From a virus: a stretch of DNA of 64,000 bases. Within the stretch, counting starts at the first letter, position 1, and each line of letters begins with the position of its first letter. This document shows, in pieces, positions 337-63,420 of this stretch. Below the pieces are notes generated by a model. It made no database searches. It was not told where the DNA came from and saw only the letters and a program-made list of their open reading frames with translations. Location of the stretch: the IMG/VR virus record IMGVR_UViG_3300046660_000488, positions 408,640 through 472,639 of that record; one strand, written 5' to 3'. A program made the translations under genes and the position numbers.

Positions 337-1857
337 TTACTTGCTGTCAATCATTTTCTCAAGCATCGCGCTGACGCGACCAAGAACGACCTTCTCCCAG
401 CTTTCACCGTCTTGCTGGTGGATGATGTGCATGGTCGGATACCACGGAGAATCGTCCCGATTATCGAGCCAGCGCCAGCAGCCGTCAAACCGCGACAGCA
501 TCCACACCGGCTTACCCAGCGCACCCGCGAGGTGAGCCCCGGCCGTGTCCACGGTGATCAGCAAGTCCAGCCCGGCGATCCATTTGGCGGCGTACAGGAA
601 GTCGCAGTCCGGCCCGGCCAGCACGTTCTGGAAATAGTGGTCTTGGTCGTCCGGGTCGTATTGCAGGTTGACGAAGTCGATCTGGCGTTCGAGGCCGAGC
701 ATGAGGTTAAGCATCGTCCCTTTGGGGATCGAGCGTTTCTCGTCGATGGCCTGAAGCTCGGGGTTGCCCGGCCGCGCTTGCCCCGCCCAGATCAGCCCGA
801 CGCGCAGCTTGTGGCCGTCTCCATTCACCACGTCGGGAACGCTGAGGTACGGCGCCGGAGGTATGGACTTGAGGGTCGTGTTGAACAGGCGCGGCGCGCT
901 CAGCATCGGCAACTCGAAATCGTAGTCGCCGACCTCGTCGCGGCTGGTGACCACCGGCAGACCAAGGGTCTCGAACAAGGCCTTCAGCGTCCACGGCACG
1001 AGGATCGTCACCTTCCCGGCGTGCTCGGCCAGCAGCGGCGCGTAGCGAACAAACTGGATGCTGTCGCCGAAGCCTTGTTCGTGGCAGAACAGAACGTGCT
1101 TGTCCTTCGCGTCGGCGAGCGACGGCAGGAACGGCTTGACGAATTCCGTGCGGCTATTGGCCGACATCGCGCATTCCCAGCGGCGCTCGTAAAGCTCCCA
1201 GCCTTCCCCGAAATGGCCGAAGCGCAGGCGGTGGGTAGCCCGGTTGAAGTCAAGCTCGGGACTGTTGATCGGAAGCTTGGCCAGACTGTCGAACATCTGG
1301 AGCGCGGTTTTGTACTCGCCCCGGTCGGAGTGGGTCACGGCCCGGTTCAGATTGATCCGCACGAAGGCGTCGAGATTGCCTGAGCCCAAGACGGTCAGGG
1401 CATGCTCGTAGCCTTCCAGCGCCGCGTCCAGATAACCGAGCCGCCGCTGGGCGTTGGCATGGTGGAAAGCGTATTCCCAGTTTTCGGGCTCGCGGTTGGT
1501 GGCGACGTGGTAGTGCTCTTCGGCGCCGTGCAGGTGGCCGAGCGCCGAACGGACGTGGCCGATCATGAAATTGACCGCCGGATGGTCCGGGCATTCCTCG
1601 TCGGCCGCGTCGATCAGCGATTCCGCCAGTTTCAATTGGCCAGCGTCGAGCAGCGCCGACATGCTGTTGCAGAACCACGCTGGTGCGGGAGATACGGACA
1701 CGGCCGCCAGCAGCAGGGTGAAGGCCTCGTCATACCGCCCGAGCGCCACGAGGGACAGGCCGGTCACGTGCATGGTCTCGGCGGCAGACGCACCAGCCTG
1801 AAGCACGGCGTCGTGCCGACCGGCGAAATAGTCCTGCCAAACTGGATTGGTACTCAT
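337..1857 (-). CDS. TPR-repeat glycosyltransferase (GT9/GT41-like C-terminal domain)
   Basis: A 506-aa ORF. The N-terminal half has TPR-like helical repeats (GRYDEAF..., YLDAALEGYEHAL). The C-terminal half has the GFGDSIQFVRY and TVDTAGAHLAGALGKPVW motifs typical of TPR-fused glycosyltransferases. Confidence 0.6.
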   Translation of the reverse strand: MSTNPVWQDYFAGRHDAVLQAGASAAETMHVTGLSLVALGRYDEAFTLLLAAVSVSPAPAWFCNSMSALLDAGQLKLAESLIDAADEECPDHPAVNFMIGHVRSALGHLHGAEEHYHVATNREPENWEYAFHHANAQRRLGYLDAALEGYEHALTVLGSGNLDAFVRINLNRAVTHSDRGEYKTALQMFDSLAKLPINSPELDFNRATHRLRFGHFGEGWELYERRWECAMSANSRTEFVKPFLPSLADAKDKHVLFCHEQGFGDSIQFVRYAPLLAEHAGKVTILVPWTLKALFETLGLPVVTSRDEVGDYDFELPMLSAPRLFNTTLKSIPPAPYLSVPDVVNGDGHKLRVGLIWAGQARPGNPELQAIDEKRSIPKGTMLNLMLGLERQIDFVNLQYDPDDQDHYFQNVLAGPDCDFLYAAKWIAGLDLLITVDTAGAHLAGALGKPVWMLSRFDGCWRWLDNRDDSPWYPTMHIIHQQDGESWEKVVLGRVSAMLEKMIDSK

Positions 1858-8091: not shown

Positions 8092-8556
8092 CTAAATCGA
8101 ATTCTCGTCCATTTTGGTGATCCGCTTGGCGGCCAAGGACTTTTTGCGTTCCTTTTCCGACTGGTGCGCGCGGTACACAATGCACGGACCCATCCAGCCA
8201 TATGGCCCCACGAACAGTGCGGTGATCAGCCACCAGTCTTGGTTTTTAACGAACCACGGGATGTGGTGCGTGACCGTCAGCATGCCCAGCGTACCGAAGA
8301 ACACGAGCAGCAGAAAAGTCGGGCCGAACGTGATGATCTCAGACCTGATCCACCGGCGCCGAGCATCTTGTTCGTCCGGGGTCACCAGCAGACCAAGCTC
8401 GTCTTCCAGCATGGCCTGTCGTTCGGCCATCGCGCAGACCTTCTTGAACCAGTGGCGGTCGTTGATGCCAATGGGGCACGGTCCGGTCTCCGGCGTCCAC
8501 GAGACGAAATCGGCGACGATCTTCTGAGCCCGGTCGGCCACCACGGGTTTCATCGG
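8092..8556 (-). CDS. membrane protein with two predicted TM helices
   Basis: The start at MKPVVADRAQ has its ATG overlapping the serS stop (ATGA). Hydrophobic stretches are IITFGPTFLLLVFFGTLGML and WWLITALFVGPYGWMGPCIVY. Confidence 0.45.
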   Translation of the reverse strand, partial: PMKPVVADRAQKIVADFVSWTPETGPCPIGINDRHWFKKVCAMAERQAMLEDELGLLVTPDEQDARRRWIRSEIITFGPTFLLLVFFGTLGMLTVTHHIPWFVKNQDWWLITALFVGPYGWMGPCIVYRAHQSEKERKKSLAAKRITKMDENSI

Positions 8557-9827
8557 ATGACTTCCAACCCGTTCATGTAGGGTTGCAGGACGCGGGGCAC
8601 GCGGATCGAGCCATCCTCGTTCTGGTAATTCTCCATGACGGCGACCAGCGTGCGGCCGACCGCCAACCCCGAACCGTTGAAGGTCCGCAGGTAACGGTTC
8701 TTGCCACCGTCGCTGGGCTTGTAGCGGGCGTTCATCCGCCGGGATTGGAATTGCCCGAAGTCCGACACGCTCGAAATTTCGCGGTAGGTCTCTTGGCTCG
8801 GAATCCAAACCTCGATGTCGATGGTCTTGGCGGCCGAGAAGCCGGTGTCGCCGCCGCACAGCAGTACCGTGCGGAACGAAAGCTCCAGAGCGCCCAAGAT
8901 GCCTTGGGCGTTGATCAGGATGAAGTTGTGCTCGTTCGCCGTTGCGCTGTCAGTTATCGAGACCAACTCGACCTTGTAGAATTGGTGCTGGCGAATCAGG
9001 CCGCGCGTGTCACGTCCGGCCGAACCCGCCTCGGCGCGGAAGCATGGCGTCAGAGCCACGTAGCGCAGGGGAAGCTGATCCTCGGGGATGATCTTGTCGC
9101 GGACAAGGTTGGTGATCGAAACCTCGGCGGTCGGGATCAGCCAGTGATCCGACTCCGGAATGTGGAACAGGTCGTCCTTGAATTTTGGAAGCTGGCCGGT
9201 CCCGATCAGAGCGTTGGCGTGGACCATCAGCGGAGGATTGACCTCCATGAAGCCGTTCATGGCGTGGCGGTCGAGCATGAATTGGCCAAGCGCCCGTTCG
9301 AGACGCGCCAGCGGACCCTTGGTCACGCAGAACCGGGCGCCGCTCATTTCAGCCGCCGCCTCGAAATCCATCATGCCGAGATTTTCACCCAGCGTGACGT
9401 GGTCCTTGGGTGTGAACGAGAAATTCGGGCGAAGTAATGGGAAGTCAGAGATCACCTTGTTGTGGCTCTCGTCCACGCCGATGGGCACACCAACGTCCAG
9501 CATGTTCGGGATACGCAGCAAGGTTTCTTGAACTTGCTCGTGCAGCTTGCGCTCGTTGGCCGTGGAATCCGAGAGGAAGCCCTTCAGCGCGGTCATCGAC
9601 TCAATCGCCCGCTGGCGCTCGATGCCTTGAAGCGTTGGGATGCGGGCAGATTCCTCGTTGCGCTGCTGAAGCAGGCTTTCGGAATTTTGAATGGCCTTGC
9701 GGTGCTGCTGGTCCAGATCGACCAGCGTGTTGATCAGTACCGAAGCTTCGGCGTGGGTCATCCCCTTCCGGCCAAGCTCGCTGATGACAGCATGCGGGTT
9801 GTCGCGGACGAATTTCAGATCAAGCAT
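8550..9827 (-). CDS. serS: seryl-tRNA synthetase
   Basis: A 425-aa ORF. It has an N-terminal coiled-coil arm and class-II aaRS core motifs (FRAEAGSAGRDTRGLIRQHQF, GSGLAVGRTLVAVMEN). The overall collinearity with SerRS is clear. Confidence 0.85.
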   Translation of the reverse strand: MLDLKFVRDNPHAVISELGRKGMTHAEASVLINTLVDLDQQHRKAIQNSESLLQQRNEESARIPTLQGIERQRAIESMTALKGFLSDSTANERKLHEQVQETLLRIPNMLDVGVPIGVDESHNKVISDFPLLRPNFSFTPKDHVTLGENLGMMDFEAAAEMSGARFCVTKGPLARLERALGQFMLDRHAMNGFMEVNPPLMVHANALIGTGQLPKFKDDLFHIPESDHWLIPTAEVSITNLVRDKIIPEDQLPLRYVALTPCFRAEAGSAGRDTRGLIRQHQFYKVELVSITDSATANEHNFILINAQGILGALELSFRTVLLCGGDTGFSAAKTIDIEVWIPSQETYREISSVSDFGQFQSRRMNARYKPSDGGKNRYLRTFNGSGLAVGRTLVAVMENYQNEDGSIRVPRVLQPYMNGLEVIR

Positions 9828-10000: not shown

Positions 10001-10209
10001 CCCAGCAAGTGCTCGATGACGCTACCAAAGACCCCGGAGTCGGGATCAGAATTATGTGGTGGATGCGCGTTTCTCGCCTTGACCTCTTCCACTTCATCTG
10101 GAGAGACAAGGACCATCCGGCCGGGGTATTTGAGCCACGTGTGGCCGTCAGCAACCCATAGGGTCTCAGAAACCCAAACCATGCCGTCTTCGTCGGGTTC
10201 CATCATTTC
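9997..10209 (-). CDS. hypothetical small acidic protein
   Basis: The sequence is MEPDEDGMVWVSETLWVADGHTWLKY... Its start overlaps the stop of the 10203..11156 gene. Confidence 0.35.
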   Translation of the reverse strand, partial: EMMEPDEDGMVWVSETLWVADGHTWLKYPGRMVLVSPDEVEEVKARNAHPPHNSDPDSGVFGSVIEHLLG

Positions 10210-11156
10210 AGGCCGACCAGCCAAGCGGCATCGTGCGAAATCCGGGTGTCGAAGATCGAGAATTCCGTGATGGTCTTGGGGACCTCGAAGCCGATGCCAC
10301 GCAGTTGGGTCGCGATGTTCTCACAGCTTCCCTTGAACCTTTCGTACGTGCCGTCGTATTTCCGGTAGGTGACCATCATGACGTAGGTGTCGTCGCTGAT
10401 TTTCTTGAAGGCATTCCGTGAGACGTGGGCGTCGAGATCGTAGGCGGCGGCGCGAAGGCCTTCGATCCGGTCGTCGCTGACCACCACGTTGAAGTGGGCC
10501 TCAAAATAGCACGCCGGGGGCATCGCCTGACGACTGTGGCTATTGGACGGAGCCGCCGGATGCCACGGAACAGTCTCGATTTTCTGGCGGGCCACGTTAT
10601 AGCCGCGTTCGACCAGATCATCCTTGATCCGGCTCACTTCAAGGAACGCCGAGCGGTTGTCGCCCATGTGGACCGACGAGGTCTGGGCGTCGAGCATAAC
10701 GGTCTCGCCATGTTGGTTGTGCAGGTCGATCAGCAGCGGCTTGACGCCGATCTCCGCGCAGTCGGCCTTGTACTGCTCGATGTTCAGGCCACCCTCGCCC
10801 GGCGAGACGGTGACGTGGATTTCGTAGGGGAGCGGGTAGGTGACGTCGCGCTCGCGGGTCTGAAGTTCGTCCCAGTACTGGGCCTTCTTCATCATCATCG
10901 ACCCGATGTCGTCGTGGCTGTAGCCCAACTGGTAGGCGACACTCAGCGCGCAGAGGATGACGTCGGCCGTCTCTTCAAGGATGCGCTCGGAGGTGACGAA
11001 CCGGTGGGTCGTGGTCGGCACGTTGTCGAAGGGCAGGACGGCCTTGGCCAGTTCGCCGACTTCTTCAGCCGTCTTCAGGGCCTTTTCGGTCAGGGTCTTC
11101 TTATCCTTGGCGGACAGCGCGGCGATATAGTCGAAAATCTCGGGTTTCATGACCAC
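10203..11156 (-). CDS. MazG-like nucleotide pyrophosphohydrolase domain protein with an unknown C-terminal domain
   Basis: The N-terminus EEVGELAKAVL...ILEETADVILCALSVAYQLG resembles the all-alpha MazG/NTP-PPase fold. Confidence 0.45.
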   Translation of the reverse strand: MVMKPEIFDYIAALSAKDKKTLTEKALKTAEEVGELAKAVLPFDNVPTTTHRFVTSERILEETADVILCALSVAYQLGYSHDDIGSMMMKKAQYWDELQTRERDVTYPLPYEIHVTVSPGEGGLNIEQYKADCAEIGVKPLLIDLHNQHGETVMLDAQTSSVHMGDNRSAFLEVSRIKDDLVERGYNVARQKIETVPWHPAAPSNSHSRQAMPPACYFEAHFNVVVSDDRIEGLRAAAYDLDAHVSRNAFKKISDDTYVMMVTYRKYDGTYERFKGSCENIATQLRGIGFEVPKTITEFSIFDTRISHDAAWLVGLK

Positions 11157-31159: not shown

Positions 31160-33088
31160 TTGGTTTACCACAATGGTATGGCCATGGTACTCGATGGAGA
31201 GTTATTAACCATCGAGGCTTCTATGCCGCATTTCCTTCAAACCATTCTCGGTTTCTGGTGGGTTCTGCCCATCCTGCTGGCCATCATTTTCTGGCCGATC
31301 ACATTCCGCCTGTTCGGGGTCATCCTCGTTCCGCAGGACAAGATCGGCATCGTCACCAAGAAATTCCGTCTGATCGGTGAAGACATCCGCCTGCCGGACG
31401 GCGCCCTCGTGGCTCTGAAGGGTGAAGCTGGCATTCAGGCCGACTGTCTCGCACCCGGCCTGCACCTCTGGTATTGGCCGTGGCAGTACGACATCAACCT
31501 GTCGCCCTTCACGACGATCAAGGAAGGCCATGTCGGCATCGTCGAGGCCAATGACGGTCTGCCCATCCAAGTCGGCCGGGTTCTGGCCCGCACGGTCAAG
31601 GAAGCCGACTCGTTCCAAGACGCGCGCGCCTTCCTGACCAACGGCGGCCAGCGCGGTCCTCAGATCGACGCCATCCGCCCCGGCACGTACCGGATCAACA
31701 CGGCGCTGTTCTCCATCCGCGTCGTCCCGGCCACGCAGATTCCGGAAAACAAGGTCGGCCTCGTCACCACCTACGACGGCACGTCTCTGCCGACCGGCGA
31801 CATCGCGGGTCCGGAAGTCACGGGCCACCACAGCTTCCAAGACGGCCAAGCCTTCATCGGCGCGGGCGGCTACAAGGGTCGCCAAGAGCAGGTCATTCTG
31901 GCCGGTACGTACTACCACAATCCGAACTTCGTTTCGGTTGAGTTGGTCGATCTGGTGAGCGTGCCCATCGGTTACGTCGGCGTCGTCAACGCCTTCGTCG
32001 GCAAGATTCCGCTCGACAAGGAAGTCAGCGATATCCACGCCAACATCGTGCAGCGCGGCTTCAAGGGCGTGTGGGACAAGGCGCTCGATCCGGGCAAGTA
32101 CCCGATGAACACCTACACCCATAAGGTGGAAATGGTCCCGACCACGAACATCGTGCTCAACTGGGCGGGCGCCAAGACCGAGAGCCACGCTCTCGACCGC
32201 AACCTCTCGACCATCACGGTGCGTTCGGCGGATGGTTTCTCGTTCAACCTCGACGTCTCGCAGATCATCCACATCGCTCCGGATGACGCTTCGAAGGTCA
32301 TCGCCCGCTTCGGCTCGATGCAAAACCTCGTCACGCAGGTTCTGGAACCGCTGATCGGCAACTACTTCCGCAACTCGGCTCAGGCCTCCGACATCATCCA
32401 ATTCCTGTCGGGCCGCGCTGAAGAGCAGAAGAAGGCCAAGGAGTGCATCGACGCGGCGATCACCGCCTACGCCGTGCAGTCCGTGGACACCCTGATCGGC
32501 GACATCGTGCCACCGGAGGAACTGATGAAGACCCTGACCGACCGGAAGGTCGCTCAGCAACGCATCGAAACCTTCAAGCAGCAGGAAGCCTCGGAAGTGG
32601 CCCGCCAGTCGCTGGAAGAGTCCAAGTCGAAGGCTGACACCCAAGGTCGCGTCGTTGACGCCCAGCGGGCCGTGGAAGTGGCCGAACTGGACGCCAAGGC
32701 GAAGGTCAAGAAGGCCAGCGGTGACGCTGAGTCCAAGACCATCAACGCCAAGGCTGACGCCGAGGTTCTGACCATGGTCGGTGAAGCGACGGCGGCCCAG
32801 AAACTGGCGGTCGGTAACGCCGAAGCCACGGTTCTGCAAGCCAAGGTCGAAGCGGTCGGCAAGGAAGCCTACGCCCAGATGCAAATCTTCGGCGATCTGG
32901 CGGTCAACAAGACCCAACTGGTTCCTCTCGTCCAAGCCGGTGGCAATGGCGAGGGCGGTGGCTCTCTGATCGACGCCATGTTGGGCGCCCTGCTGGCCAA
33001 GGAAGTTGGCGGTGACACGACCAAGCAGGAGATCGCGCGTCTCCAGCGCCTGTCGGGCATCACGCCTCCGGGCGGCAAGTCCGAGTAA
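31160..33088 (+). CDS. flotillin-like SPFH/band-7 membrane protein (the start may be at 31205)
   Basis: There is an N-terminal TM segment (ILGFWWVLPILLAIIFWPITF) and a long SPFH-like core. The C-terminus is a coiled-coil with flotillin-type Ala/Glu/Lys repeats (AEVAELDAKAKVKKASGDAESKTINAKADAEV...). Confidence 0.65.
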   Translation: MVYHNGMAMVLDGELLTIEASMPHFLQTILGFWWVLPILLAIIFWPITFRLFGVILVPQDKIGIVTKKFRLIGEDIRLPDGALVALKGEAGIQADCLAPGLHLWYWPWQYDINLSPFTTIKEGHVGIVEANDGLPIQVGRVLARTVKEADSFQDARAFLTNGGQRGPQIDAIRPGTYRINTALFSIRVVPATQIPENKVGLVTTYDGTSLPTGDIAGPEVTGHHSFQDGQAFIGAGGYKGRQEQVILAGTYYHNPNFVSVELVDLVSVPIGYVGVVNAFVGKIPLDKEVSDIHANIVQRGFKGVWDKALDPGKYPMNTYTHKVEMVPTTNIVLNWAGAKTESHALDRNLSTITVRSADGFSFNLDVSQIIHIAPDDASKVIARFGSMQNLVTQVLEPLIGNYFRNSAQASDIIQFLSGRAEEQKKAKECIDAAITAYAVQSVDTLIGDIVPPEELMKTLTDRKVAQQRIETFKQQEASEVARQSLEESKSKADTQGRVVDAQRAVEVAELDAKAKVKKASGDAESKTINAKADAEVLTMVGEATAAQKLAVGNAEATVLQAKVEAVGKEAYAQMQIFGDLAVNKTQLVPLVQAGGNGEGGGSLIDAMLGALLAKEVGGDTTKQEIARLQRLSGITPPGGKSE

Positions 33089-48459: not shown

Positions 48460-49357
48460 AACTCGCCATGCTATCCCCGGTTTGGTGGCCACCTCACCGA
48501 GGAATTCCTGTGGCCGTTCATCACGGCCGAATGTTCCGGCTACTGGGGGCTCTTTTTCACGAGTGGTCTAATCTCGCTACTAGACAGCCCTTTCCACCGT
48601 GGACGTTAGACCGAATGGGGACCAACCCATCCTTTTTCACGCCCGTCTTGCTTGCGGGTGGGACGCGACCCCCACTGTCTGCATTGCCAACCGGATGAAC
48701 CGGGCTCTCCGCAAATTCTGTTGCCGTTTCCGGCGAATGGCTGACACGGGCAATCCTACTTCCCACCGTCGCGGGTGTCGGATGCTCCTATGAAACCATG
48801 TCGGCCTCGAACCGATCCTCCCCCGATCAGGGGGCACACTACCCGTTGTGCTACAGCTTCCGTGTCCAAAGGGAGTCTATAGCCTCCCAGAGGTTGTTGC
48901 TCATGCGAGCGAATTTTGACCAGCGATTGACATCAGCAGCGCTACTTCAATCACGAACGAGGTGGGGGCGCCAGTCCCCACTTTCCCCAGTGTTTGCTGG
49001 GGTCTTATAAGCTGATAGATCACTCGTTCTACGCTTGGTCGTTCAGCAGTCGGCGCCGCTCAAGAGACAGCACCGTCGCCTACACTTGGATGCCCATGCG
49101 GGCAAATGGTTATGCGCGGGCGGATTTATACCACCGGCCTCCCCGTTGGAAACGGGCTCTCTCGCCCTCCGACCGTTTACTGACAGGTGCGTTTGCAACC
49201 GCGCCCTGCGTTCAACGTATCGAAGCCCAACGACGTCATGGTCACATCCGACTAACGGCGGGTAGTTTACCCCATGCCAGTTCGTTGCCTGAGCTACGCG
49301 CAACTTTGATGCCCATGCGGGCAAATTGGTACGCAGATGGGGTTTCCCGAGGAAACT

Positions 49358-55812: not shown

Positions 55813-56742
55813 ATGGACACCAGCATCTTCACGTCGATCAACGCCTGTGAACGGATCGCCGCACGGACGATACGCAACCTTGCCATATCCAGAACCCATC
55901 CGAGCGTCAGCCTGCTCGACGTTCTGAAGCCATCGTTTCACCGCATCTACGCCGCTGGCAAGCTCACCCGCGATGAACTCGCGGCCGTGACGCGCAAGGT
56001 CCGCGACAAGCTCAATCAGAGCGAAGCGGTGGTCAAGAACACGCTGATCATCGGCAACAAGCTCAGCACCCGCGACATGAACGAGGGGCAGATCGTCTGC
56101 CTGCAAGGCGCGGGCGAACAGTGGCTGGAAATGTGGGGCGTCGGCGTGATGATGTCGCGCAAGCGCATCGTCGTGTTCTCGGCGCCAGCCGAATTCAAAG
56201 TGCACCGCCACGCGCTCACCCGCTACATGGGCGGCGAGCTTCAGTATCCCGAGCACCTTGCCGCGAAACTGCTGGACGCGGCTCAACTGTCGATCCCGAT
56301 CATGGCGGCCATCCTCGCCCACCGGACGGACGACAACCTCGCCATTCCGGTCGGCGACGGCATGCTGTTTGGCAAGATCAAGCTCTTCGACGGCTACGGC
56401 GAATTCATGACCGTCCGCACGGGCCAGAACGGCGTGGGCATGGTCCCGCGTCGGCGTTCGGGGATGCTGAAGGACAGTACGACCGAAGCCAACATGATGA
56501 CCTATGTGGACGCCGACCGGATGGTCGAGTCTCGCGTTGAACTGCATGGCCTGCTCAGCGAGTTTGCCGCCAAGCACCACCGCATCTGCGCGGCGATCTT
56601 CGAGGACTGTGTGTTCGAGACGAACCGCCCCTACCAGAAAGCCATCATCGACGAATTGCAGGAGGATGCCCGCAAGCTGGTGACCAGTCCGACGTGGTCA
56701 CAGTTCGCGGGCACGGCCAACCGGGTCACCACCAGCGCTTAG
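55813..56742 (+). CDS. hypothetical protein
   Basis: The start at MDTSIFTSIN lies within track ORF 55783..56742. Confidence 0.45.
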   Translation: MDTSIFTSINACERIAARTIRNLAISRTHPSVSLLDVLKPSFHRIYAAGKLTRDELAAVTRKVRDKLNQSEAVVKNTLIIGNKLSTRDMNEGQIVCLQGAGEQWLEMWGVGVMMSRKRIVVFSAPAEFKVHRHALTRYMGGELQYPEHLAAKLLDAAQLSIPIMAAILAHRTDDNLAIPVGDGMLFGKIKLFDGYGEFMTVRTGQNGVGMVPRRRSGMLKDSTTEANMMTYVDADRMVESRVELHGLLSEFAAKHHRICAAIFEDCVFETNRPYQKAIIDELQEDARKLVTSPTWSQFAGTANRVTTSA

Positions 56743-56911
56743 GCGCTGGCTTGACCCACGGCTTGTCGCTCTTCCACGTGTGCTTGTTCAGGGTGTCGTC
56801 TTCGGGACGCCGTCCACCGATGGCCTTGGCCAGTTTCTTGAGGTTGTCGCCTCGCGCTTCGGCGTAATAGGTGTGGGACTTGACCCACAGTTCGCAGTAG
56901 AAACCACGCAT
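56726..56911 (-). CDS. hypothetical small basic protein
   Basis: A 61-aa ORF. A CCTAAATAGAGCCATGCG box lies about 90 nt upstream on the minus strand. Confidence 0.35.
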   Translation of the reverse strand: MRGFYCELWVKSHTYYAEARGDNLKKLAKAIGGRRPEDDTLNKHTWKSDKPWVKPAPKRWW

Positions 56912-57040
56912 AGTCTTTCTCCATAGCTCCGCACCGCACTGATTTGCGGTTTCAACGGAGTCATAGGAGAGGGAGTTATGGTGCTTGACGCATGGCTCTA
57001 TTTAGGATGTGGGCGCCATTGCTGACGCCCACACGGCCCA

Positions 57041-57976
57041 TTATTTCAGAGGGTAGACGCGGACGTAGTCCACGGTCATGGCCGCCGGGTAGACGCCCTT
57101 GGCCGGGTCACCGGCCGTGATGTCGCTCACCGCGACGTTCATCAGCAGGTACATCGGCTTGTCGTAGGCGAACGGCGTGCGATAGACCTCGACGTTGTTG
57201 ATGTAGAACACCAGTTCAGTCGGGGTCCACAGGACGCCGTAGGTGTTGAAGTTGGTCGTCGCCGTGGGCACGGTCGGCTGAGGCTTGGGCGACAGGGCTG
57301 TCTCGTTGCCGGTGACGCCGACGTGCACGGTGATGTTGTCCACGTTGGTGCGGTTCAGCGGCACGCCCTTCATGACCTGAATGGTCTTGTGCGGCCCGGC
57401 ATAGTGTTCGAGCACATCGATCTCCGGCAGGCGCCCGCCATTGGTCGCGGTCTTCTCGACCGGGAGCAGCCAGAACGCCGCCCACGTGCCGTCAGCCTTC
57501 GGCATCACCGCGCGCCATTCCCAGTAGCCGTAGGTCTGGGTGAAGCTGCGCTGGGTGGTCAGCAGGCCGCTGATGAAGTTGCGCGAGCCTTGGCCGCACG
57601 TTTTCTTCACGTAATCGGTGGCGCGGATGACGTTGATGCTCAGGTTGCCGTTGCCCTGATAGAAGACGTTCTGCCCGCAGTACTCGGTGTCCACGTAGAC
57701 CTGTTGCTCGCCGGTCAGGGCGCGCGACGAGAACTGTTCGGTCATGGTCAGCGGGCGGCTGGCCTTCTCACGCTGGTTGCCGAAGTAATAGTCGGTCTTC
57801 CAGACGCCCTTCGGGTTCTTTGTGCTCAGCGTGTCCAGCGGCGTGCCGTTTGGGGCGTTGAACTCAGCAGCAAAGGTTGGGGTCGGATTGAGGATCGAGC
57901 GATCCAGTGTGGCAGACATGGCTGGCGTACAAAGCATCAGAGCAATGGCCGCCGAAATGGCTTTCAAAAATTTCAT
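57041..57976 (-). CDS. secreted glycoside hydrolase family 16 (beta-glucanase/laminarinase-like)
   Basis: The signal peptide is MKFLKAISAAIALMLCTPAMSA. The GH16 catalytic motif LPEIDVLEH (ExDxxE) is present. Confidence 0.7.
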   Translation of the reverse strand: MKFLKAISAAIALMLCTPAMSATLDRSILNPTPTFAAEFNAPNGTPLDTLSTKNPKGVWKTDYYFGNQREKASRPLTMTEQFSSRALTGEQQVYVDTEYCGQNVFYQGNGNLSINVIRATDYVKKTCGQGSRNFISGLLTTQRSFTQTYGYWEWRAVMPKADGTWAAFWLLPVEKTATNGGRLPEIDVLEHYAGPHKTIQVMKGVPLNRTNVDNITVHVGVTGNETALSPKPQPTVPTATTNFNTYGVLWTPTELVFYINNVEVYRTPFAYDKPMYLLMNVAVSDITAGDPAKGVYPAAMTVDYVRVYPLK

Positions 57977-57977
57977 G

Positions 57978-58062
57978 ATATATTGGCTCCAAAAATTCAA
58001 GCCAATAGTAGTACAGTATTTACTATACTGTCAACATGAACGTTTACAGTTGTCAACGGTCG
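57978..58062 (-). promoter_or_regulatory. AT-rich promoter region for the GH16 gene (TTGACA-N18-TACTAT plus an embedded GTAAATAC box)
   Basis: On the minus strand: TTGACAgtatagtaaatactgtacTACTAT...GGAGCCaatatatcATG. The composition is strongly AT-shifted compared with the genome. Confidence 0.4.
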
Positions 58063-58254
58063 CTATCCATTGATGACGCGGACGTACACGGCTCGAAGAC
58101 GTCCGCTGGAGGTCATCTTTACGCGGAAAGTCACCACCTGTCCTTCGGAGTAGCACTTGCCTTTGCCGATGAGAAAAATGGGTCCGCCACCATCGGACGG
58201 GGTGATCATCCCGAAACCGCGAGAGTCTTTGAACCACTTGATTTGCCCGAACAT
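58063..58254 (-). CDS. cold-shock protein (CspA family)
   Basis: MFGQIKWFKDSRGFGMITPSDGGGPIF carries the RNP1-like KGFGFI motif. Confidence 0.65.
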   Translation of the reverse strand: MFGQIKWFKDSRGFGMITPSDGGGPIFLIGKGKCYSEGQVVTFRVKMTSSGRLRAVYVRVING

Positions 58255-58316
58255 GCGCGGGCCGGGGAGCGTAGGGGTCATCCCATCAGCCTACCAAATC
58301 TGGTAAACGAAACCCA

Positions 58317-59464: not shown

Positions 59465-59746
59465 TCAAGAGTCGATAGCCCACCAAATCGCTTCGTCGGA
59501 CTCGCGATCCTCGACCGTGGGGTCATCGTGGAAGCCGATGATGTTCTTCTGCTTCATGCGCGTCGGGAAATAGACGCAGCCGCACGACGAGCAGATGTTC
59601 GCATCGGTGATCACCGGGATGATGTCGGGTGCGACTTCCGCAATTTCGGAAAGCTGAGAGTGGTGGATTTTGGCCTGACGGTTCAACGTCGGGCGCTCGC
59701 AGTTACGATTAGGGCAGGGCTTGTTCTGCTTCGAGCGGTGGGCCAT
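59465..59746 (-). CDS. hypothetical Cys-rich protein
   Basis: A 93-aa ORF with CPNRNCE...CSSCGC. Confidence 0.35.
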   Translation of the reverse strand: MAHRSKQNKPCPNRNCERPTLNRQAKIHHSQLSEIAEVAPDIIPVITDANICSSCGCVYFPTRMKQKNIIGFHDDPTVEDRESDEAIWWAIDS

Positions 59747-59761
59747 GATCGTATTTATGGA

Positions 59762-59769
59762 CTAAATAT
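59762..59769 (+). promoter_or_regulatory. late-promoter-like box CTAAATAT
   Basis: The box ends 4 nt before ATG 59774. Confidence 0.45.
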
Positions 59770-59773
59770 TGCC

Positions 59774-60640
59774 ATGCGCGAGTACATCAACATCGTAGAA
59801 TCCAACACCTATCCCATCAAGGGTGGAACGGTTCAGGTCGTGACCCGAGAACTGCGGGGCAATCGCTACAGCTTCACGGCCACGGTCGATGGACAGCGAG
59901 CCGCCATCGGTGAATTCCAAGCGCAAGACTCGATGAATGGCGACAAGGGATCGGTGGAAGAGATCACTGTCGCTGCGGCGTTCCGGCGCCGTGGGATCGC
60001 CTCGGCGATCTACAGCCATTTCGAGAAGATGGGCTTCACCGTTGTTCCATCCGATGATGTCCGGCCGGATGGCCAAGCGTTTTGGAAGAGCCGTCCGCTG
60101 ACGGAGTTGTCGCGGCCGGTCTTCATAGATGAAGTCGATCCGATCTTGAAGAAAGCCGGGTGGACCCGCGTCGGCTCTGGCTACTATGCCTCCGTCTACG
60201 CCAAGGAAGGCGTGAACTACGTCCTCAAGCTGTTCAGCAATCACGACAAAGGCTACATCGATTTCCTGAAGCTTGTTCAGCAGCATCCGAACAAGCACTT
60301 CCCCACGCTCCGTGGCCTGCCGCGTCGGATCACGTCGGGATACACGGCGGTCCGCATGGAGAAACTTCTGCCAGCCGGTTATGGTGACGACGTGCCAAGC
60401 CTTGGCGTCTACCTGCTCTGCCGCGACACCGGTCCCTATGCCAAGAACCAGTATCAGGTGAAGGCCTACGAGCACGTGGTGGAATATCTCCAGAGCCAGC
60501 CGGAACTGAAACGCGCCCTCGACTTGATCATCGACAATCTGCTTCCCAAATACAACGAAGACCTGCACAGTGAGAATTTCATGAAGCGCGCTGACGGAAC
60601 GCTGGTCATCATCGACCCGGTCGGTTTCGTTCGGAAATAG
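59774..60640 (+). CDS. effector-island protein 5 (N-terminus MREYINIVES; GNAT acetyltransferase fused to a protein-kinase-like/aminoglycoside-phosphotransferase-like domain)
   Basis: The GNAT part is EEITVAAAFRRRGIASAIYSHFEKMGF. The kinase-like part has a G-loop WTRVGSGYYASVYAKEG, a Lys in VLKLF, and a catalytic-loop-like LHSENFMKRADGTLVIIDPVGF. Confidence 0.55.
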   Translation: MREYINIVESNTYPIKGGTVQVVTRELRGNRYSFTATVDGQRAAIGEFQAQDSMNGDKGSVEEITVAAAFRRRGIASAIYSHFEKMGFTVVPSDDVRPDGQAFWKSRPLTELSRPVFIDEVDPILKKAGWTRVGSGYYASVYAKEGVNYVLKLFSNHDKGYIDFLKLVQQHPNKHFPTLRGLPRRITSGYTAVRMEKLLPAGYGDDVPSLGVYLLCRDTGPYAKNQYQVKAYEHVVEYLQSQPELKRALDLIIDNLLPKYNEDLHSENFMKRADGTLVIIDPVGFVRK

Positions 60641-61891: not shown

Positions 61892-62551
61892 GTGCGCGAA
61901 TTCATCACCCTCATCGAGAGCGGCACAGCCGCTGAAGCATTTGACGACTGGTTCGGCAACAGCCGTGTGGTTGATGGTGACGGTCGGCCGCTGATCGTCT
62001 TCCACGGCACGAACCAACCGTTCGAGCAGTTCTCCAAGGCGCGCGGCGGCATGGCCACTGGCCCGCAGGCTGGTGCCATCCACGGGTTCTTCTTCACGAG
62101 CACCGAAGCGGAAGCTTGGGATTATGCCAAGCACGCCGGGAGCAAGGTCGTATCCGGTATCGACCATTTCGAGCAGGAGACGGAACGTCTGCGTTTGGAG
62201 CAGGAACGTCTTGAAAAGCTTGCCCAGCGCACGAACAAGAAATCGGACTGGGATGCGTTCTATGCCGCCTACCAGAATTGGGAAGATTTCGAGATAAATG
62301 CCACGCGCGAGGAAGACGATGTCGGCAACCGCGTCGTCAAGGCCTACCTGTCGCTCCAGAACCCTCTGGAGGTCAATTTCAACGGCACGATGCAGTCTGA
62401 GGCTGGCGTCATCCAAGACGTGGTCGAGAAGGCCGTACGCGACGGCAATGACGGCGTGATCATGCGGAACATCTACGACGGCCCGTATGGCGGCCACACG
62501 AGCGACCACTTCGTCGCGTTCTCACCCGATCAGATTCATCAGGTTGGCTGA
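61892..62551 (+). CDS. effector-island protein 8 (N-terminus V/MREFITLIES; H-Y-E class ADP-ribosyltransferase-like)
   Basis: The GTG start overlaps the upstream stop. RPLIVFHGTNQPFEQFS...GFFFTSTEAEAW matches the [FY]HGT motif of diphtheria-toxin/PARP-like ARTs. Confidence 0.5.
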   Translation: MREFITLIESGTAAEAFDDWFGNSRVVDGDGRPLIVFHGTNQPFEQFSKARGGMATGPQAGAIHGFFFTSTEAEAWDYAKHAGSKVVSGIDHFEQETERLRLEQERLEKLAQRTNKKSDWDAFYAAYQNWEDFEINATREEDDVGNRVVKAYLSLQNPLEVNFNGTMQSEAGVIQDVVEKAVRDGNDGVIMRNIYDGPYGGHTSDHFVAFSPDQIHQVG

Positions 62552-63420
62552 TGCGCTATCGCGAACTCATCGAGGCGGCAAGCGACGAGCCACCGTTCAA
62601 GAAACCCAAGGGCGTTCGCACACCGGCCTTCACCAAGGACGGGCGCCGCATCATCCTGTCGAAAGGTTACATGAGCGTCGATGCCATGATCGACGGCAAG
62701 CCTGCCGGGAACATGCAGATCAGCAGCCCGAGCGACGGCGGACTAGGCTACAGCAATCGGTTCTACGTCAACCGGGTGTGGGTCGAGGAAGAATTCCGTG
62801 GACAAGGCGTGGCCACGGCCATGTACGATTTCGCCTTCCGAGCCGGTTTCAGGCCACTGGGAATGAGCCGCACGCTCACCGACCAAGGTAAGGCGTTCTG
62901 GGACGACCACGTTCGCAAGAAGGCGTCCAAAGGTCTCGGCCGCGACTATCACAGCGATTATCCGAACCGGTTCCACTGGCGACCGTTGCCGATGTCTGAA
63001 GACATCATCAGCGAAGGCAAGGTTCATCAACTGGATACGGGCTACGGTGGAAACGTGCGAATGACGCTCATCTACCAGAATCCGTCTCCCGTTCAAGCAC
63101 AGACAATGGCCAAGAACCAGATGGACCGGTACAACGGCCTTCTGTACCTTCGTGGGATCATGTCCAACGGATCGACGGTCTATGTCGCCGATGGCTGGGC
63201 CTGCACCCATGACGATCTGATGCAGAATTTCTTCCCCGGCAAGAGTGAGAGCGACGAGCGCTTCACGACGTTCGAGATCGCCAACTATGCGGGCGGCAGT
63301 TACGGCGCCGACAGGACCACGTTCCCAGCGAAGGTCGGCGTGGTCAAAGCGGGACATTTCGACGTCGAAACGAACCCGCAGATCGCGAAGATCATCGCCG
63401 GATGCCGGGCGGTCAACTAG
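62551..63420 (+). CDS. effector-island protein 9 (N-terminus MRYRELIEAA; N-terminal GNAT acetyltransferase)
   Basis: VWVEEEFRGQGVATAMYDFAFRAGFRPLG. Confidence 0.5.
   Translation: MRYRELIEAASDEPPFKKPKGVRTPAFTKDGRRIILSKGYMSVDAMIDGKPAGNMQISSPSDGGLGYSNRFYVNRVWVEEEFRGQGVATAMYDFAFRAGFRPLGMSRTLTDQGKAFWDDHVRKKASKGLGRDYHSDYPNRFHWRPLPMSEDIISEGKVHQLDTGYGGNVRMTLIYQNPSPVQAQTMAKNQMDRYNGLLYLRGIMSNGSTVYVADGWACTHDDLMQNFFPGKSESDERFTTFEIANYAGGSYGADRTTFPAKVGVVKAGHFDVETNPQIAKIIAGCRAVN

What the first reader, a model, noticed from the sequence alone, without database searches (positions are those of the whole stretch)
57041..58062. Secreted GH16 glycanase with an AT-rich private promoter
The signal peptide plus the ExDxxE catalytic motif indicate an exported beta-glucanase or laminarinase-type enzyme. 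It could be a soluble EPS or capsule depolymerase, or a biofilm-matrix enzyme, rather than a tail-spike domain. The 85-bp upstream region is strikingly AT-rich for this genome. It contains TTGACA-N18-TACTAT with an embedded GTAAATAC box, which suggests dual or host-independent expression.
Basis: partly seen in the sequence, partly recalled or inferred. Interest (0 to 1): 0.5.

Follow-up and report, generated by a model that had tools for sequence, protein, structure and literature searches.

The report
Exported GH16 glycanase in jumbo phage
A giant bacteriophage carries a stand-alone gene for a signal-peptide-bearing family-16 sugar-chain-cutting enzyme whose closest relatives sit in bacterial slime (exopolysaccharide) gene clusters, so it most likely clears the host's slime layer; this is an interesting accessory gene but of a kind already seen in other phages.

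Summary
Window 57041-57976 (-) encodes a 311-aa protein with a Pfam GH16 hit above threshold, an intact EIDVLE catalytic motif, a confident laminarinase-like AlphaFold model and an N-terminal Sec-type signal peptide (heuristics only; no SignalP here). The 86-bp upstream spacer has 36% GC against 58.9% and holds the most AT-rich 60 bp of the window. It contains TTGACA-N18-TACTAT and GTAAATAC.

The window is a jumbo myophage related to Agrobacterium phage Atu_ph07 and Sinorhizobium phage Phosso. The closest cellular homologues (57-59% identity, Caulobacter-like) lie inside Wzx/Wzy exopolysaccharide clusters. The best homologue (61%) sits between tail-fibre and holin genes of an unrelated siphophage. 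Other phage GH16s are mostly larger proteins without signal peptides. The soluble, exported EPS-glycanase reading is therefore the best supported, but the substrate is inferred.

GTAAATAC is one copy of a window-wide motif, TAAATAC (18 copies, about 1 expected), always co-oriented with a downstream gene, including sheath and terminase. It resembles the T4 late promoter and probably depends on a phage sigma factor with host core polymerase, so it is not host-independent. The sigma-70-like element is only modestly supported.

This is a new member of a known kind. In passing: neighbouring genes appear to be leaderless (TAAATAN-N4-ATG).

The parts
57041..57976 (-). GH16 glycanase gene (311 aa precursor)
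   Evidence: Pfam PF00722 E=1.4e-14. PDB laminarinase 3iln E=6.9e-17. AF2 model pLDDT 92, and Foldseek top PDB hits are GH16 laminarinases at E~1e-17. GC3 is 0.86, like the rest of the phage.
57911..57976 (-). Sec-type signal peptide coding part (aa 1-21/22, predicted cleavage AMS|A or MSA|T)
   Evidence: The n/h/c regions pass heuristic tests and there is no lipobox. All seven close homologues have non-conserved hydrophobic N-termini followed by a conserved mature start LDR. In the AF2 model it is a low-confidence helix 3-14 detached from the domain.
57407..57424 (-). Catalytic motif E185-I-D187-V-L-E190 (ExDxxE, beta-bulge type)
   Evidence: Read directly from the sequence. E185, D187 and E190 are invariant in 42 homologues. 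The motif aligns with EIDIAE of laminarinase 3iln.
57977..58062 (-). 86-bp AT-rich spacer between the csp-like gene and the GH16 gene (promoter region and 5' leader)
   Evidence: GC 36% against 58.9%; contains the lowest 60-bp GC of the window.
58016..58023 (-). GTAAATAC: copy of the phage-wide promoter-like motif TAAATAC (T4-late-like -10 element). The predicted transcription start is near 58011, giving a leader of about 35 nt.
   Evidence: 18 copies against 1.0 expected. All are co-oriented with a gene start no more than about 150 nt downstream, including sheath, terminase and virion genes. ATAAATAC / ATAAATA lies upstream of the sheath gene in Atu_ph07 and Phosso. The start position is inferred from T4 geometry and from the N4-ATG copies.
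58005..58034 (-). Sigma-70-like element TTGACA-N18-TACTAT (10/12 match, long spacer)
   Evidence: Local shuffle P=0.02. Region-wide, 9 such sites are found against 4.7+-2.5 expected, so the support is only modest.
58051..58056 (-). Second TTGACA, part of the direct repeat GTTGACA x2 with 22-bp spacing
   Evidence: TTGACA is under-represented in the window (17 against 29.8 expected). The function of the repeat is unknown.
58013..58031 (.). Perfect 7-bp inverted repeat ACAGTAT-N5-ATACTGT that overlaps the TAAATAC box (possible operator or RNA hairpin)
   Evidence: I5; also folds. Function untested.
57981..58007 (-). 5'-leader hairpin (TATTGGCT / AGCCAATA) whose 3' arm contains the SD sequence GGAG (57987-57990)
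   Evidence: (I3). It would be present in a transcript starting near 58011 and absent from one starting near 57998. The z-score is not significant, so this is a hypothesis only.
57003..57040 (-). Strong stem-loop directly after the stop codon (putative terminator or 3' stabiliser; no U-tract)
   Evidence: dG -25.5 kcal/mol, z=-3.6, 0 of 200 shuffles as stable. The terminator scan did not call it, because there is no T-run.
56998..57005 (-). Next promoter-like box, CTAAATAG-N4-ATG, serving the downstream 61-aa gene (56726-56911)
   Evidence: It shows that the GH16 gene is bracketed as its own transcription unit.
58063..58281 (-). Upstream neighbour: 72-aa cold-shock-domain protein (read-through into GH16 is possible)
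   Evidence: Pfam CSD E=1.8e-8. No convincing terminator lies between it and the GH16 gene.

Best explanation
The gene encodes a catalytically competent GH16 endo-beta-glycanase. It is made as a precursor with a cleavable Sec signal peptide, so in the infected Gram-negative host (probably an alphaproteobacterium) it is exported across the inner membrane rather than built into virions. It then reaches the outside by the unknown route used by ExoK-like enzymes, or at lysis.

Its most likely substrate is the host's own acidic, Wzx/Wzy-made exopolysaccharide or capsule, because the phage gene is a sister of glycanases encoded inside such clusters. Cutting that polymer would thin the slime around the lysing cell and its neighbours, so that progeny phage diffuse and adsorb. 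It may also destroy a receptor or a trap.

The gene is a self-contained, moron-like unit: AT-rich promoter region, SD-containing leader, ORF and a strong 3' hairpin. Transcription most likely starts at a phage-specific TAAATAC element, a T4-late-type -10 box read by host core polymerase with a phage sigma factor, so the enzyme would be made together with virion proteins. An overlapping sigma-70-like TTGACA-N18-TACTAT may add host-sigma-driven expression.

Shown: GH16 membership, the catalytic residues, the fold, the signal-peptide features, the promoter-like motifs and their genome-wide statistics, and the gene context of the homologues. Inferred: export, substrate, timing, transcription start sites and benefit to the phage.
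For: GH16 identity.

Export:
- Signal-peptide features are present in the query and in all seven close homologues, which diverge in sequence before a conserved mature start.
- The Cys100/Cys127 pair is invariant in this subfamily, consistent with an extracytoplasmic disulfide.

EPS link:
- Caulobacter sp. HMWF025 (57%) and a MAG (59%) carry the homologue between a WecG-family glycosyltransferase/SDR and an AT3-SGNH acyltransferase, Wzy, Wzx and UDP-glucose dehydrogenase.
- A 46% homologue lies next to Wzz and Poly_export genes.
- The best NCBIfam match is the catalytic half of the EPS glycanase EglC, 150 bits.
- S. meliloti eglC and 'family 16' genes are hit at 34-39% identity over 93-96% of the protein.

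Not virion-bound:
- There is no anchor domain, and the gene is far from the structural genes identified in the window.
- The phiM12 glycanase, reported as abundant in the virion proteome (PMC4621102), is 405 aa without a signal peptide.
- None of 25 IMG/VR loci reaches the query's N-terminal hydrophobicity, and 16 carry the GH16 domain in, or well inside, a larger protein.

Accessory status: no homologue is detected in Atu_ph07 or Phosso. A 61% homologue lies in an unrelated siphophage between tail-fibre and holin genes, and the two phage copies pair in an NJ tree.

Promoter. Group 2.2 jumbo phages lack an RNA polymerase but encode sigma factors and gp33 (PMC7824862).

3' hairpin.
Against: - No dedicated signal-peptide predictor could be run.
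- A Sec signal only takes a protein to the periplasm of a Gram-negative cell, so the extracellular step is assumed.
- The protein fails the curated equivalog cutoffs for EglC (150 against 700 bits) and ExoK (19 against 350 bits), so substrate specificity cannot be transferred.
- The closest solved structures are laminarinases, so a simple beta-1,3-glucan substrate is not excluded.
- The host is unknown.
- No close relative of this phage is available to test whether the promoter region is conserved.
- The sigma-70-like match is weak evidence, and its 18-nt spacer is suboptimal.
- The 3' hairpin has no U-tract.
- TAAATAC being a late promoter rests on analogy, with no transcript data.
Confidence: 0.6

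Rival explanations
1. The enzyme acts in the periplasm on nascent EPS or on periplasmic or cyclic beta-glucans. This would remodel or abolish the cell's surface polysaccharide during infection. The benefit would be exclusion of superinfecting phages that use that polymer as receptor, or easier lysis, rather than clearing slime for progeny.
For: A Sec signal peptide delivers a protein only to the periplasm. From background knowledge (York & Walker), the rhizobial glycanases ExoK and ExsH act preferentially on nascent succinoglycan. Many weaker homologues (about 30% identity) occur in Bradyrhizobium, a genus that makes cyclic beta-1,3/1,6-glucans (background knowledge).
Against: There is no direct evidence. 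The closest homologues sit in Wzx/Wzy EPS clusters, not in osmoregulated periplasmic glucan loci. If the TAAATAC element is a late promoter, expression would be late, which suits exclusion poorly.
Confidence: 0.15
2. It is a general laminarinase/beta-glucanase type auxiliary metabolic gene. It would digest environmental beta-glucans to feed the infected cell and would be unrelated to host EPS.
For: The best PDB sequence and fold matches are laminarinases and beta-1,3(4)-glucanases. JGI annotates the protein as 'beta-glucanase (GH16 family)'.
Against: Identity to laminarinases is only 20-26%, against 57-61% to the EPS-cluster and phage clade. No sugar-uptake or catabolic genes lie nearby. The short infection cycle makes extracellular scavenging a weak benefit (inference).
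Confidence: 0.1
3. It is after all a virion-associated depolymerase (tail-fibre or baseplate accessory), and the hydrophobic N-terminus is not a cleaved signal.
For: Homologous domains in phiM12/phiM9 and in Curtobacterium phages are structural or minor tail proteins. In contig L005 the homologue directly follows tail-fibre genes.
Against: The protein has a 311-aa single domain with no anchor domain. It has n-h-c signal features with an AMS|A site. The gene is more than 20 kb from the structural genes identified in the window and lies among small accessory genes. An exported protein cannot join cytoplasmic virion assembly (established knowledge).
Confidence: 0.05
4. The N-terminus is a signal-arrest-release-type anchor. 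The glycanase would accumulate tethered to the inner membrane and be released when the holin depolarises it, as with SAR endolysins.
For: The h-region is rich in Ala, Ser and Gly-like small residues (AISAAIALMLCTPAMSA) and the context is a phage. In L005 the homologue sits next to a holin-like gene.
Against: The uninterrupted hydrophobic core is only about 11 residues and is followed by Pro and a -3/-1 site, which is typical of cleavable signals. The cellular homologues have the same architecture without any phage lysis context.
Confidence: 0.05

Closest known systems
Sinorhizobium meliloti EPS glycanases EglC / ExsH (GH16, endo-1,3-1,4-beta-glycanase) and ExoK
   Same: Same GH16 catalytic domain. 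The best NCBIfam match is EglC (E=8.5e-44). Identity to pSymB eglC loci is 34% over 96% of the protein. Like ExoK, the protein has an N-terminal Sec signal (background knowledge) and its cellular relatives are associated with EPS clusters.
   Different: It scores far below the equivalog cutoffs (150/700 and 19/350). It lacks the roughly 200-aa N-terminal half of EglC: only profile positions 209-458 match, and no RTX (HemolysinCabind) domain appears in the Pfam scan. It is phage-encoded and its substrate is unknown.
Glycanase/laminarinase of Sinorhizobium phages phiM12, phiM9, phiN3, phiM7 and phiM19
   Same: Also a phage-borne GH16 domain proposed to cleave host EPS (PMC4621102). Identity is 29.5% over residues 90-308.
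   Different: Those proteins are about 405 aa with a roughly 150-aa N-terminal extra domain and no signal peptide. They lie in a baseplate/neck cluster, and the phiM12 protein is abundant in the virion proteome (PMC4621102). The protein here is a stand-alone exported precursor outside the structural genes identified in the window.
Secreted GH16 proteins in Caulobacter-type Wzx/Wzy EPS clusters (Caulobacter sp. HMWF025; MAG GCA_965609265.1)
   Same: 57-59% identity over the full length. They share the signal peptide plus single-domain architecture, the conserved Cys pair and the EID[VI][LF]EH motif.
   Different: They are chromosomal, embedded in biosynthetic operons, and uncharacterised themselves.
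Bacterial GH16 laminarinases (e.g. Rhodothermus marinus 3ILN, SCLam 6XOF)
   Same: Same beta-jelly-roll fold and ExDxxE beta-bulge motif.
   Different: Identity is only 20-26%. The phage protein has extra segments, so TM-score normalised to the query is about 0.6 against about 0.75 normalised to the target.
Bacteriophage T4 late promoter (TATAAATA, gp55/gp33-dependent)
   Same: An A/T-rich -10-only element (TAAATA core) with no conserved -35. It precedes sheath, terminase and other virion genes. The phage group encodes a minimal sigma factor and gp33 (PMC7824862).
   Different: The consensus here is [C/A/G]TAAATA[C/T]. Many copies sit exactly 4 nt before an ATG. No transcript mapping exists.

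Membership tests
Glycoside hydrolase family 16 (CAZy GH16 / Pfam PF00722) | Profile HMM match above the curated threshold | tested here: met
   PF00722: 54.4 bits against a cutoff of 22, E=1.4e-14, residues 118-305.
Glycoside hydrolase family 16 (CAZy GH16 / Pfam PF00722) | Catalytic E-x-D-x(-x)-E motif with nucleophile and acid/base glutamates | tested here: met
   E185-I-D187-V-L-E190. It is invariant in 42 homologues and aligns to EIDIAE of 3iln.
Glycoside hydrolase family 16 (CAZy GH16 / Pfam PF00722) | Beta-jelly-roll (concanavalin-like) fold | tested here: met
   AF2 pLDDT 92.2, pTM 0.88. The top 50 Foldseek PDB hits are all GH16 enzymes, best E=1.2e-17.
Glycoside hydrolase family 16 (CAZy GH16 / Pfam PF00722) | Hydrolytic activity on a beta-glycan | not testable with these tools
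   Needs recombinant enzyme assays.
EglC / ExsH-type rhizobial EPS endoglycanase | NCBIfam equivalog score at or above the cutoff | tested here: not met
   NF052454: 150.2 bits against a cutoff of 700. Only profile positions 209-458 of 459 are matched.
EglC / ExsH-type rhizobial EPS endoglycanase | Glycine-rich RTX repeats / type I secretion architecture | tested here: not met
   No HemolysinCabind hit in the Pfam scan. The protein has an N-terminal Sec-type signal instead.
ExoK-type secreted EPS endoglycanase | NCBIfam equivalog score at or above the cutoff | tested here: not met
   NF052392: 19.1 bits against a cutoff of 350.
ExoK-type secreted EPS endoglycanase | Gene located in, or derived from, an EPS biosynthesis cluster | tested here: inconclusive
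   Met for the closest cellular homologues. The phage copy itself has no such neighbours.
Sec (SPase I) signal peptide | Basic n-region, hydrophobic h-region of 7-15 residues, and a c-region with small residues at -3/-1 | tested here: met
   MKFLK / AISAAIALMLC / TPAMS|A, mean KD 2.56, no lipobox. This is a heuristic; SignalP was not available.
Sec (SPase I) signal peptide | Actual export and cleavage | not testable with these tools
   Needs PhoA/BlaM fusions or N-terminal sequencing.
Virion-associated phage depolymerase (tail spike / fibre) | N-terminal virion-anchor domain, or fusion to a fibre protein | tested here: not met
   It is a single 311-aa domain starting right after the signal peptide. 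Compare the 405-aa phiM12 protein and the 400-1285-aa IMG/VR proteins.
Virion-associated phage depolymerase (tail spike / fibre) | Location in the structural gene module | tested here: not met
   The structural genes identified (sheath, tube, terminase, virion protein) lie at 13.5-35.3 kb. The neighbours of the GH16 gene are CSD, ART-PolyVal, acetyltransferase, CoaE and small proteins of unknown function.
Sigma-70-type promoter | -35 and -10 hexamers with a 16-18 nt spacer, upstream of and co-oriented with the gene | tested here: met
   TTGACA-N18-TACTAT, 10/12. Local P=0.02. Function was not tested.
T4-type late promoter | TATAAATA-like -10 box without a -35, enriched upstream of late (virion) genes | tested here: inconclusive
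   The TAAATAC core is enriched 18-fold, co-oriented with genes, and lies upstream of sheath and terminase here and upstream of the sheath gene in Atu_ph07. It is not identical to TATAAATA (0 copies). No start-site or timing data exist.

The most novel reading that the evidence does not exclude
The jumbo (about 578 kb) phage has captured an EPS-chain-cutting glycanase from a host-type Wzx/Wzy cluster and keeps it as a Sec-exported 'public good'. The enzyme would be made from a phage-sigma-dependent late promoter, so infected cells pre-load their periplasm with a slime-dissolving, receptor-destroying enzyme that is released at lysis.

The same cassette moves between unrelated phages of the same host group. 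It is also the only SD-led gene in a 20-kb region where nearly every other transcription unit is leaderless (TAAATAN-N4-AUG). That would mark it as a recent import into a phage with an unusual, largely leaderless expression system.
Probability: 0.3. Interest if true: 0.55.

Novelty: new member of a known kind. Interest (0 to 1): 0.33.

Why it matters
If the enzyme cuts host exopolysaccharide, it is an example of a phage delivering a depolymerase through the host's secretion pathway instead of on the virion. That bears on how very large, slowly diffusing phages spread through biofilms and soil aggregates. It would also give a small, single-domain, probably easy-to-express EPS glycanase for Caulobacter-like or other alphaproteobacterial slimes.

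The promoter analysis gives a concrete, testable promoter consensus ([C/A/G]TAAATA[C/T]) for an uncultured relative of Atu_ph07 and Phosso. It also points to widespread leaderless genes in that phage. That matters more for phage gene-expression biology than the glycanase itself.

Tried and rejected
- **DNA similarity to known phages.** Megablast of 56.0-59.5 kb against the phage collection found nothing.
- **Single-sequence locus scans.** Scans of genome contigs and viral contigs with the single protein found no relatives. Only the alignment-based scans worked.
- **First structure model.** The AF2 run with an 8-sequence alignment was poor (pLDDT 66) and was replaced by the 42-sequence run.
- **Lipoprotein reading of LMLC.** Rejected, because no lipobox matches.
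- **Alternative TTG start at 58000.** Rejected. It would lie inside the promoter elements, it has no SD sequence, and two gene callers chose the ATG.
- **Rfam.** Nothing at E<=1 in 56.0-59.5 kb.
- **Conserved -35 element upstream of the 18 TAAATAC copies.** None was seen by inspection of the contexts.
- **Caulobacter sigma-73 -10 consensus (GCTANAWC, recalled from memory).** Considered as an alternative identity of the box. It differs from the motif by one inserted base, so I did not adopt it, though I cannot exclude it.
- **TAAATAC enrichment in 43-kb regions of Phosso and Atu_ph07.** None was found. Those genomes have 50% and 38% GC, so the test has little power.
- **Literature searches.** Searches for EglC function and for GH16 phage depolymerases returned nothing directly useful.
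- **Cluster look-up.** It gave no sample metadata that would help name the host.
Full report
**1. What is at the coordinates**

On the minus strand, 57041-57976 is an ORF of 311 codons starting at an ATG. GGAG lies 10 nt upstream of that ATG. The mechanical ORF list extends the ORF to a TTG at 58000. Two independent gene callers chose the ATG, and the identical 311-aa protein is on record as P0001: on a JGI contig of 578,292 bp and on a 67-kb Logan contig. GC3 is 0.86, against 0.80 +/- 0.03 for eleven large genes of the window, so the gene is compositionally at home.

**2. GH16 identity**

- Pfam PF00722 scores 54.4 bits against a cutoff of 22, E=1.4e-14.
- phmmer against PDB sequences gives laminarinases and beta-1,3-glucanases, best 3iln at E=6.9e-17. 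The query's EIDVLEH aligns to the catalytic EIDIAEH.
- In a 42-sequence alignment, E185, D187 and E190 are invariant, as are G150, W169, Y246 and W250.
- An AlphaFold2 model built on that alignment has mean pLDDT 92.2 and pTM 0.88. An earlier 8-sequence run was poor (pLDDT 66).
- The 50 best Foldseek matches listed against the PDB are all GH16 enzymes, with TM-scores normalised to the target of mostly 0.55-0.81.

**3. Signal peptide**

SignalP is not among the tools, so I used heuristics.

- The N-terminus is MKFLK / AISAAIALMLC / TPAMS|ATLD. It has two basic and no acidic residues before the core, a mean Kyte-Doolittle value of 2.56 over the best 10-residue window, a helix-breaking Pro, and a -3/-1 site A-M-S|A. 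It does not match the lipobox pattern.
- All seven close homologues (45-62% identity) have different but equally hydrophobic N-termini. These are followed by a conserved mature start (LDR...FxAEF), which is the pattern expected of a real, cleaved signal.
- Cys100 and Cys127 are invariant in this subfamily, consistent with an extracytoplasmic disulfide. This point is an inference.
- In the model, residues 1-20 form a low-confidence helix outside the domain.

**4. Genomic setting**

The window is part of a jumbo myophage.

- It encodes a 978-aa tail sheath, a tail tube, a T4-type large terminase, a virion protein, a seryl-tRNA synthetase and an SPFH protein.
- The sheath is 48% identical, and the terminase 56-57% identical, to Sinorhizobium phage Phosso (469 kb) and Agrobacterium phage Atu_ph07 (490 kb). 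Pseudomonas PA5oct-like phages come next.
- There is no nucleotide-level match in the phage collection.
- The GH16 gene lies more than 20 kb from the structural genes identified in the window (13.5-35.3 kb). Its neighbours are small genes of mixed orientation: a cold-shock-domain protein immediately upstream, and ART-PolyVal, an acetyltransferase, CoaE and many proteins of unknown function.
- tblastn finds no homologue in Atu_ph07 or Phosso. The only hits are the phiM12 group, some Curtobacterium phages (minor tail proteins) and one faecal contig. The gene is therefore accessory.

**5. Where the relatives live**

| Homologue | Identity | Setting |
|---|---|---|
| P0002 | 61% | Siphophage-like contig, directly after tail proteins, a J-like tail-fibre protein and two large proteins of unknown function, and before a holin-like gene. 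Its fibre protein resembles those of temperate phages of Rhizobium, Sinorhizobium, Agrobacterium and Paracoccus. It also has a signal peptide. |
| P0003 (MAG) and Caulobacter sp. HMWF025 | 59% and 57% | Same chromosomal neighbourhood in both: WecG-family glycosyltransferase, SDR/epimerases, GH16, AT3-SGNH acyltransferase, Wzy, Wzx and UDP-glucose dehydrogenase. This is a Wzx/Wzy-dependent acidic, acylated EPS cluster. The MAG also has a 1079-aa GH16+RTX protein. |
| P0007 | 46% | Next to Wzz/GNVR and Poly_export genes. |
| More distant relatives | 30-39% | Alphaproteobacterial 'endo-1,3-1,4-beta-glycanases', some with RTX repeats. S. meliloti eglC loci are hit at 34% over 96% of the protein. 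|

The best NCBIfam match is the catalytic half of EglC (150 bits, cutoff 700). ExoK scores only 19 bits. In an NJ tree the two phage copies pair as a sister of the Caulobacter-like bacterial clade. From this I infer capture of an EPS-processing glycanase by phages of alphaproteobacteria, followed by exchange between unrelated phages.

**6. Soluble or virion-bound**

The phiM12 glycanase is reported to lie in a baseplate/neck cluster and to be abundant in the virion proteome, and is proposed to cleave succinoglycan (PMC4621102). It is 405 aa, has no signal peptide, and carries about 150 extra N-terminal residues.

I reconstructed the GH16-bearing ORF at 25 IMG/VR viral loci. None reaches the query's N-terminal hydrophobicity. 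Sixteen encode proteins of 400-1285 aa or match only well inside a longer protein; one pair has a hydrophobic but atypical N-terminus. The BFVD fold search finds few phage GH16s. The exported single-domain form in this window, and in P0002, is therefore the minority architecture among phage GH16s. It argues for a free enzyme.

**7. The upstream region**

- 57977-58062 is 86 bp with 36% GC against a window mean of 58.9%. The lowest 60-bp GC of the whole window (27%) lies here.
- TTGACA (58034-58029)-N18-TACTAT (58010-58005) is present, a 10/12 match.
- Region-wide, such matches are not strongly enriched: 9 found against 4.7 +/- 2.5 expected. Shuffling the 86 nt themselves gives P=0.02.
- TTGACA is under-represented in the window (17 against 29.8 expected). 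Even so, two GTTGACA copies lie 22 bp apart here.

**8. The GTAAATAC box**

This is the more informative element.

- Its core, TAAATAC, occurs 18 times in the window against 1.0 expected. No shuffle reached 18.
- Every copy is co-oriented with a gene start no more than about 150 nt downstream. These include the tail sheath (two copies), the gene before the tube, the terminase and a virion protein.
- I saw no conserved -35 element in the contexts listed.
- ATAAATAC lies about 55 nt upstream of the orthologous sheath gene in Atu_ph07, and ATAAATA in Phosso.
- The motif overlaps the T4 late promoter TATAAATA (established knowledge).
- Group 2.2 jumbo phages, which include Atu_ph07, have no RNA polymerase of their own but encode sigma factors and a gp33 orthologue (PMC7824862).

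I therefore read the box as a phage-sigma-dependent, late-type promoter. It would be independent of the host sigma factor, not of the host. With T4 geometry, transcription would start near 58011, giving a leader of about 35 nt.

That leader can form a hairpin (58007-57981) whose 3' arm includes the SD sequence. A transcript from the sigma-70-like element, starting near 57997, would lack the 5' arm of the hairpin. The fold is not statistically distinctive, so this is only a hypothesis.

A perfect 7-bp palindrome (ACAGTAT-N5-ATACTGT) overlaps the box. Its role is unknown.

**9. The 3' end**

Directly after the stop codon there is a stem-loop at 57040-57003, with dG -25.5 kcal/mol and z=-3.6. It has no U-tract, and the simple terminator scan does not call it. 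Immediately after it comes another box, CTAAATAG, for the next gene. The GH16 gene is therefore bracketed as its own unit, which is a moron-like layout.

**10. Noticed on the way: apparently leaderless genes**

- In the 43-68 kb region, 9 of 10 TAAATAN boxes are followed by exactly 4 nt (once 3 nt) and then ATG.
- Those ATGs open the genes that an independent gene caller also called: 161, 93, 213, 121, 288, 138 and 172 aa.
- For the exact motif, 5 of 18 copies have N4-ATG, binomial P=6e-6.
- Two divergent genes start only 27 bp apart (59746 and 59774), with two back-to-back boxes between them.
- With T4 late-promoter geometry, the A of the ATG would be position +1, so these mRNAs would be leaderless.
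- In this region the GH16 gene is the only box-associated gene with an SD-containing leader.
- The 43-kb regions of Atu_ph07 and Phosso do not show the pattern.
- Transcript mapping in AR9 found 5' UTRs of 26-491 nt, and in phiKZ found no leaderless phage transcripts (PMC5312081, PMC8244752).

**11. Verdict**

Membership of GH16 is shown. Export, the EPS substrate, late timing and the benefit to the phage are inferred.

Phage-borne ExsH-like GH16 glycanases have already been described, so this is a new member of a known kind. Its less common feature is delivery by a signal peptide instead of by the virion. Its interest is moderate to low. The promoter and leaderless architecture around it is the more unusual feature.

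Noticed in passing
window 43791-63901 (boxes at 43802-, 53429+, 57004-, 58318+, 59757-, 59763+, 61432-, 61461+, 63888+); also L001: TAAATAN boxes followed by exactly N4 (once N3) and then ATG. These ATGs open the genes that an independent gene caller also called. The extended consensus is CTAAATA[CT]-NNCC-ATGCG. With T4 late-promoter geometry the ATG would be at +1, so most accessory genes here would be translated from leaderless mRNAs. Binomial P=6e-6 for the exact motif. The pattern is not seen in the Atu_ph07 or Phosso regions examined.
   Followed up: partly
window 59746-59774: Two divergent genes (93 aa on the minus strand, 288 aa on the plus strand) have start codons only 27 bp apart. 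The spacer consists of two back-to-back TAAATA boxes and leaves no room for 5' UTRs or SD sequences.
   Followed up: partly
whole window; P0001 contig record: The identical GH16 protein is recorded on a 578,292-bp JGI contig. The phage would then be larger than its nearest isolated relatives, Atu_ph07 (490 kb) and Phosso (469 kb), which share 48-57% identity in sheath and terminase.
   Followed up: partly
L005 (Logan ERR15133365 contig, 23.6 kb), 10001-10921: The closest homologue (61%) of the GH16 is encoded in a siphophage-like element, right after tail-fibre genes and before a holin-like gene. It also has a signal peptide. The cassette seems to move between unrelated phages.
   Followed up: partly
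L002 17616-20855 (MAG GCA_965609265.1): A 1079-aa GH16 + RTX (HemolysinCabind) protein lies at the edge of the same EPS cluster that holds the 59% homologue. This looks like an ExoK/ExsH-style pair of glycanases outside the rhizobia.
   Followed up: no
window 58063-58281 (-): A 72-aa cold-shock-domain protein is encoded immediately upstream of the GH16 gene. No clear terminator lies between them, so read-through co-transcription is possible.
   Followed up: partly
window 8550-9827 (-): A phage-encoded seryl-tRNA synthetase (Pfam Seryl_tRNA_N + tRNA-synt_2b; PHROG 16140, E=8.5e-145).
   Followed up: no
window 31160-33088 (+): A 642-aa protein with an SPFH/Band 7 domain, next to the terminase and virion genes.
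   Followed up: no
window 48791-48860 (-): ARAGORN reports an odd tRNA-like gene with an undetermined, two-base '(ga)' anticodon.
   Followed up: no
window 61892-62551 (+) and 62551-63420 (+): An ART-PolyVal ADP-ribosyltransferase-like protein (219 aa) followed by a weak GNAT acetyltransferase hit (289 aa). Both come from the precomputed Pfam hits of L001 and are probably host-takeover functions.
   Followed up: no
whole window: The hexamer TTGACA is under-represented: 17 observed against 29.8 +/- 5.7 expected, and all 100 shuffles had at least 17. This may reflect avoidance of host sigma-70 -35 sites.
   Followed up: no
window 337-1857 (-): A 506-aa TPR-repeat protein with no PHROG match.
   Followed up: no
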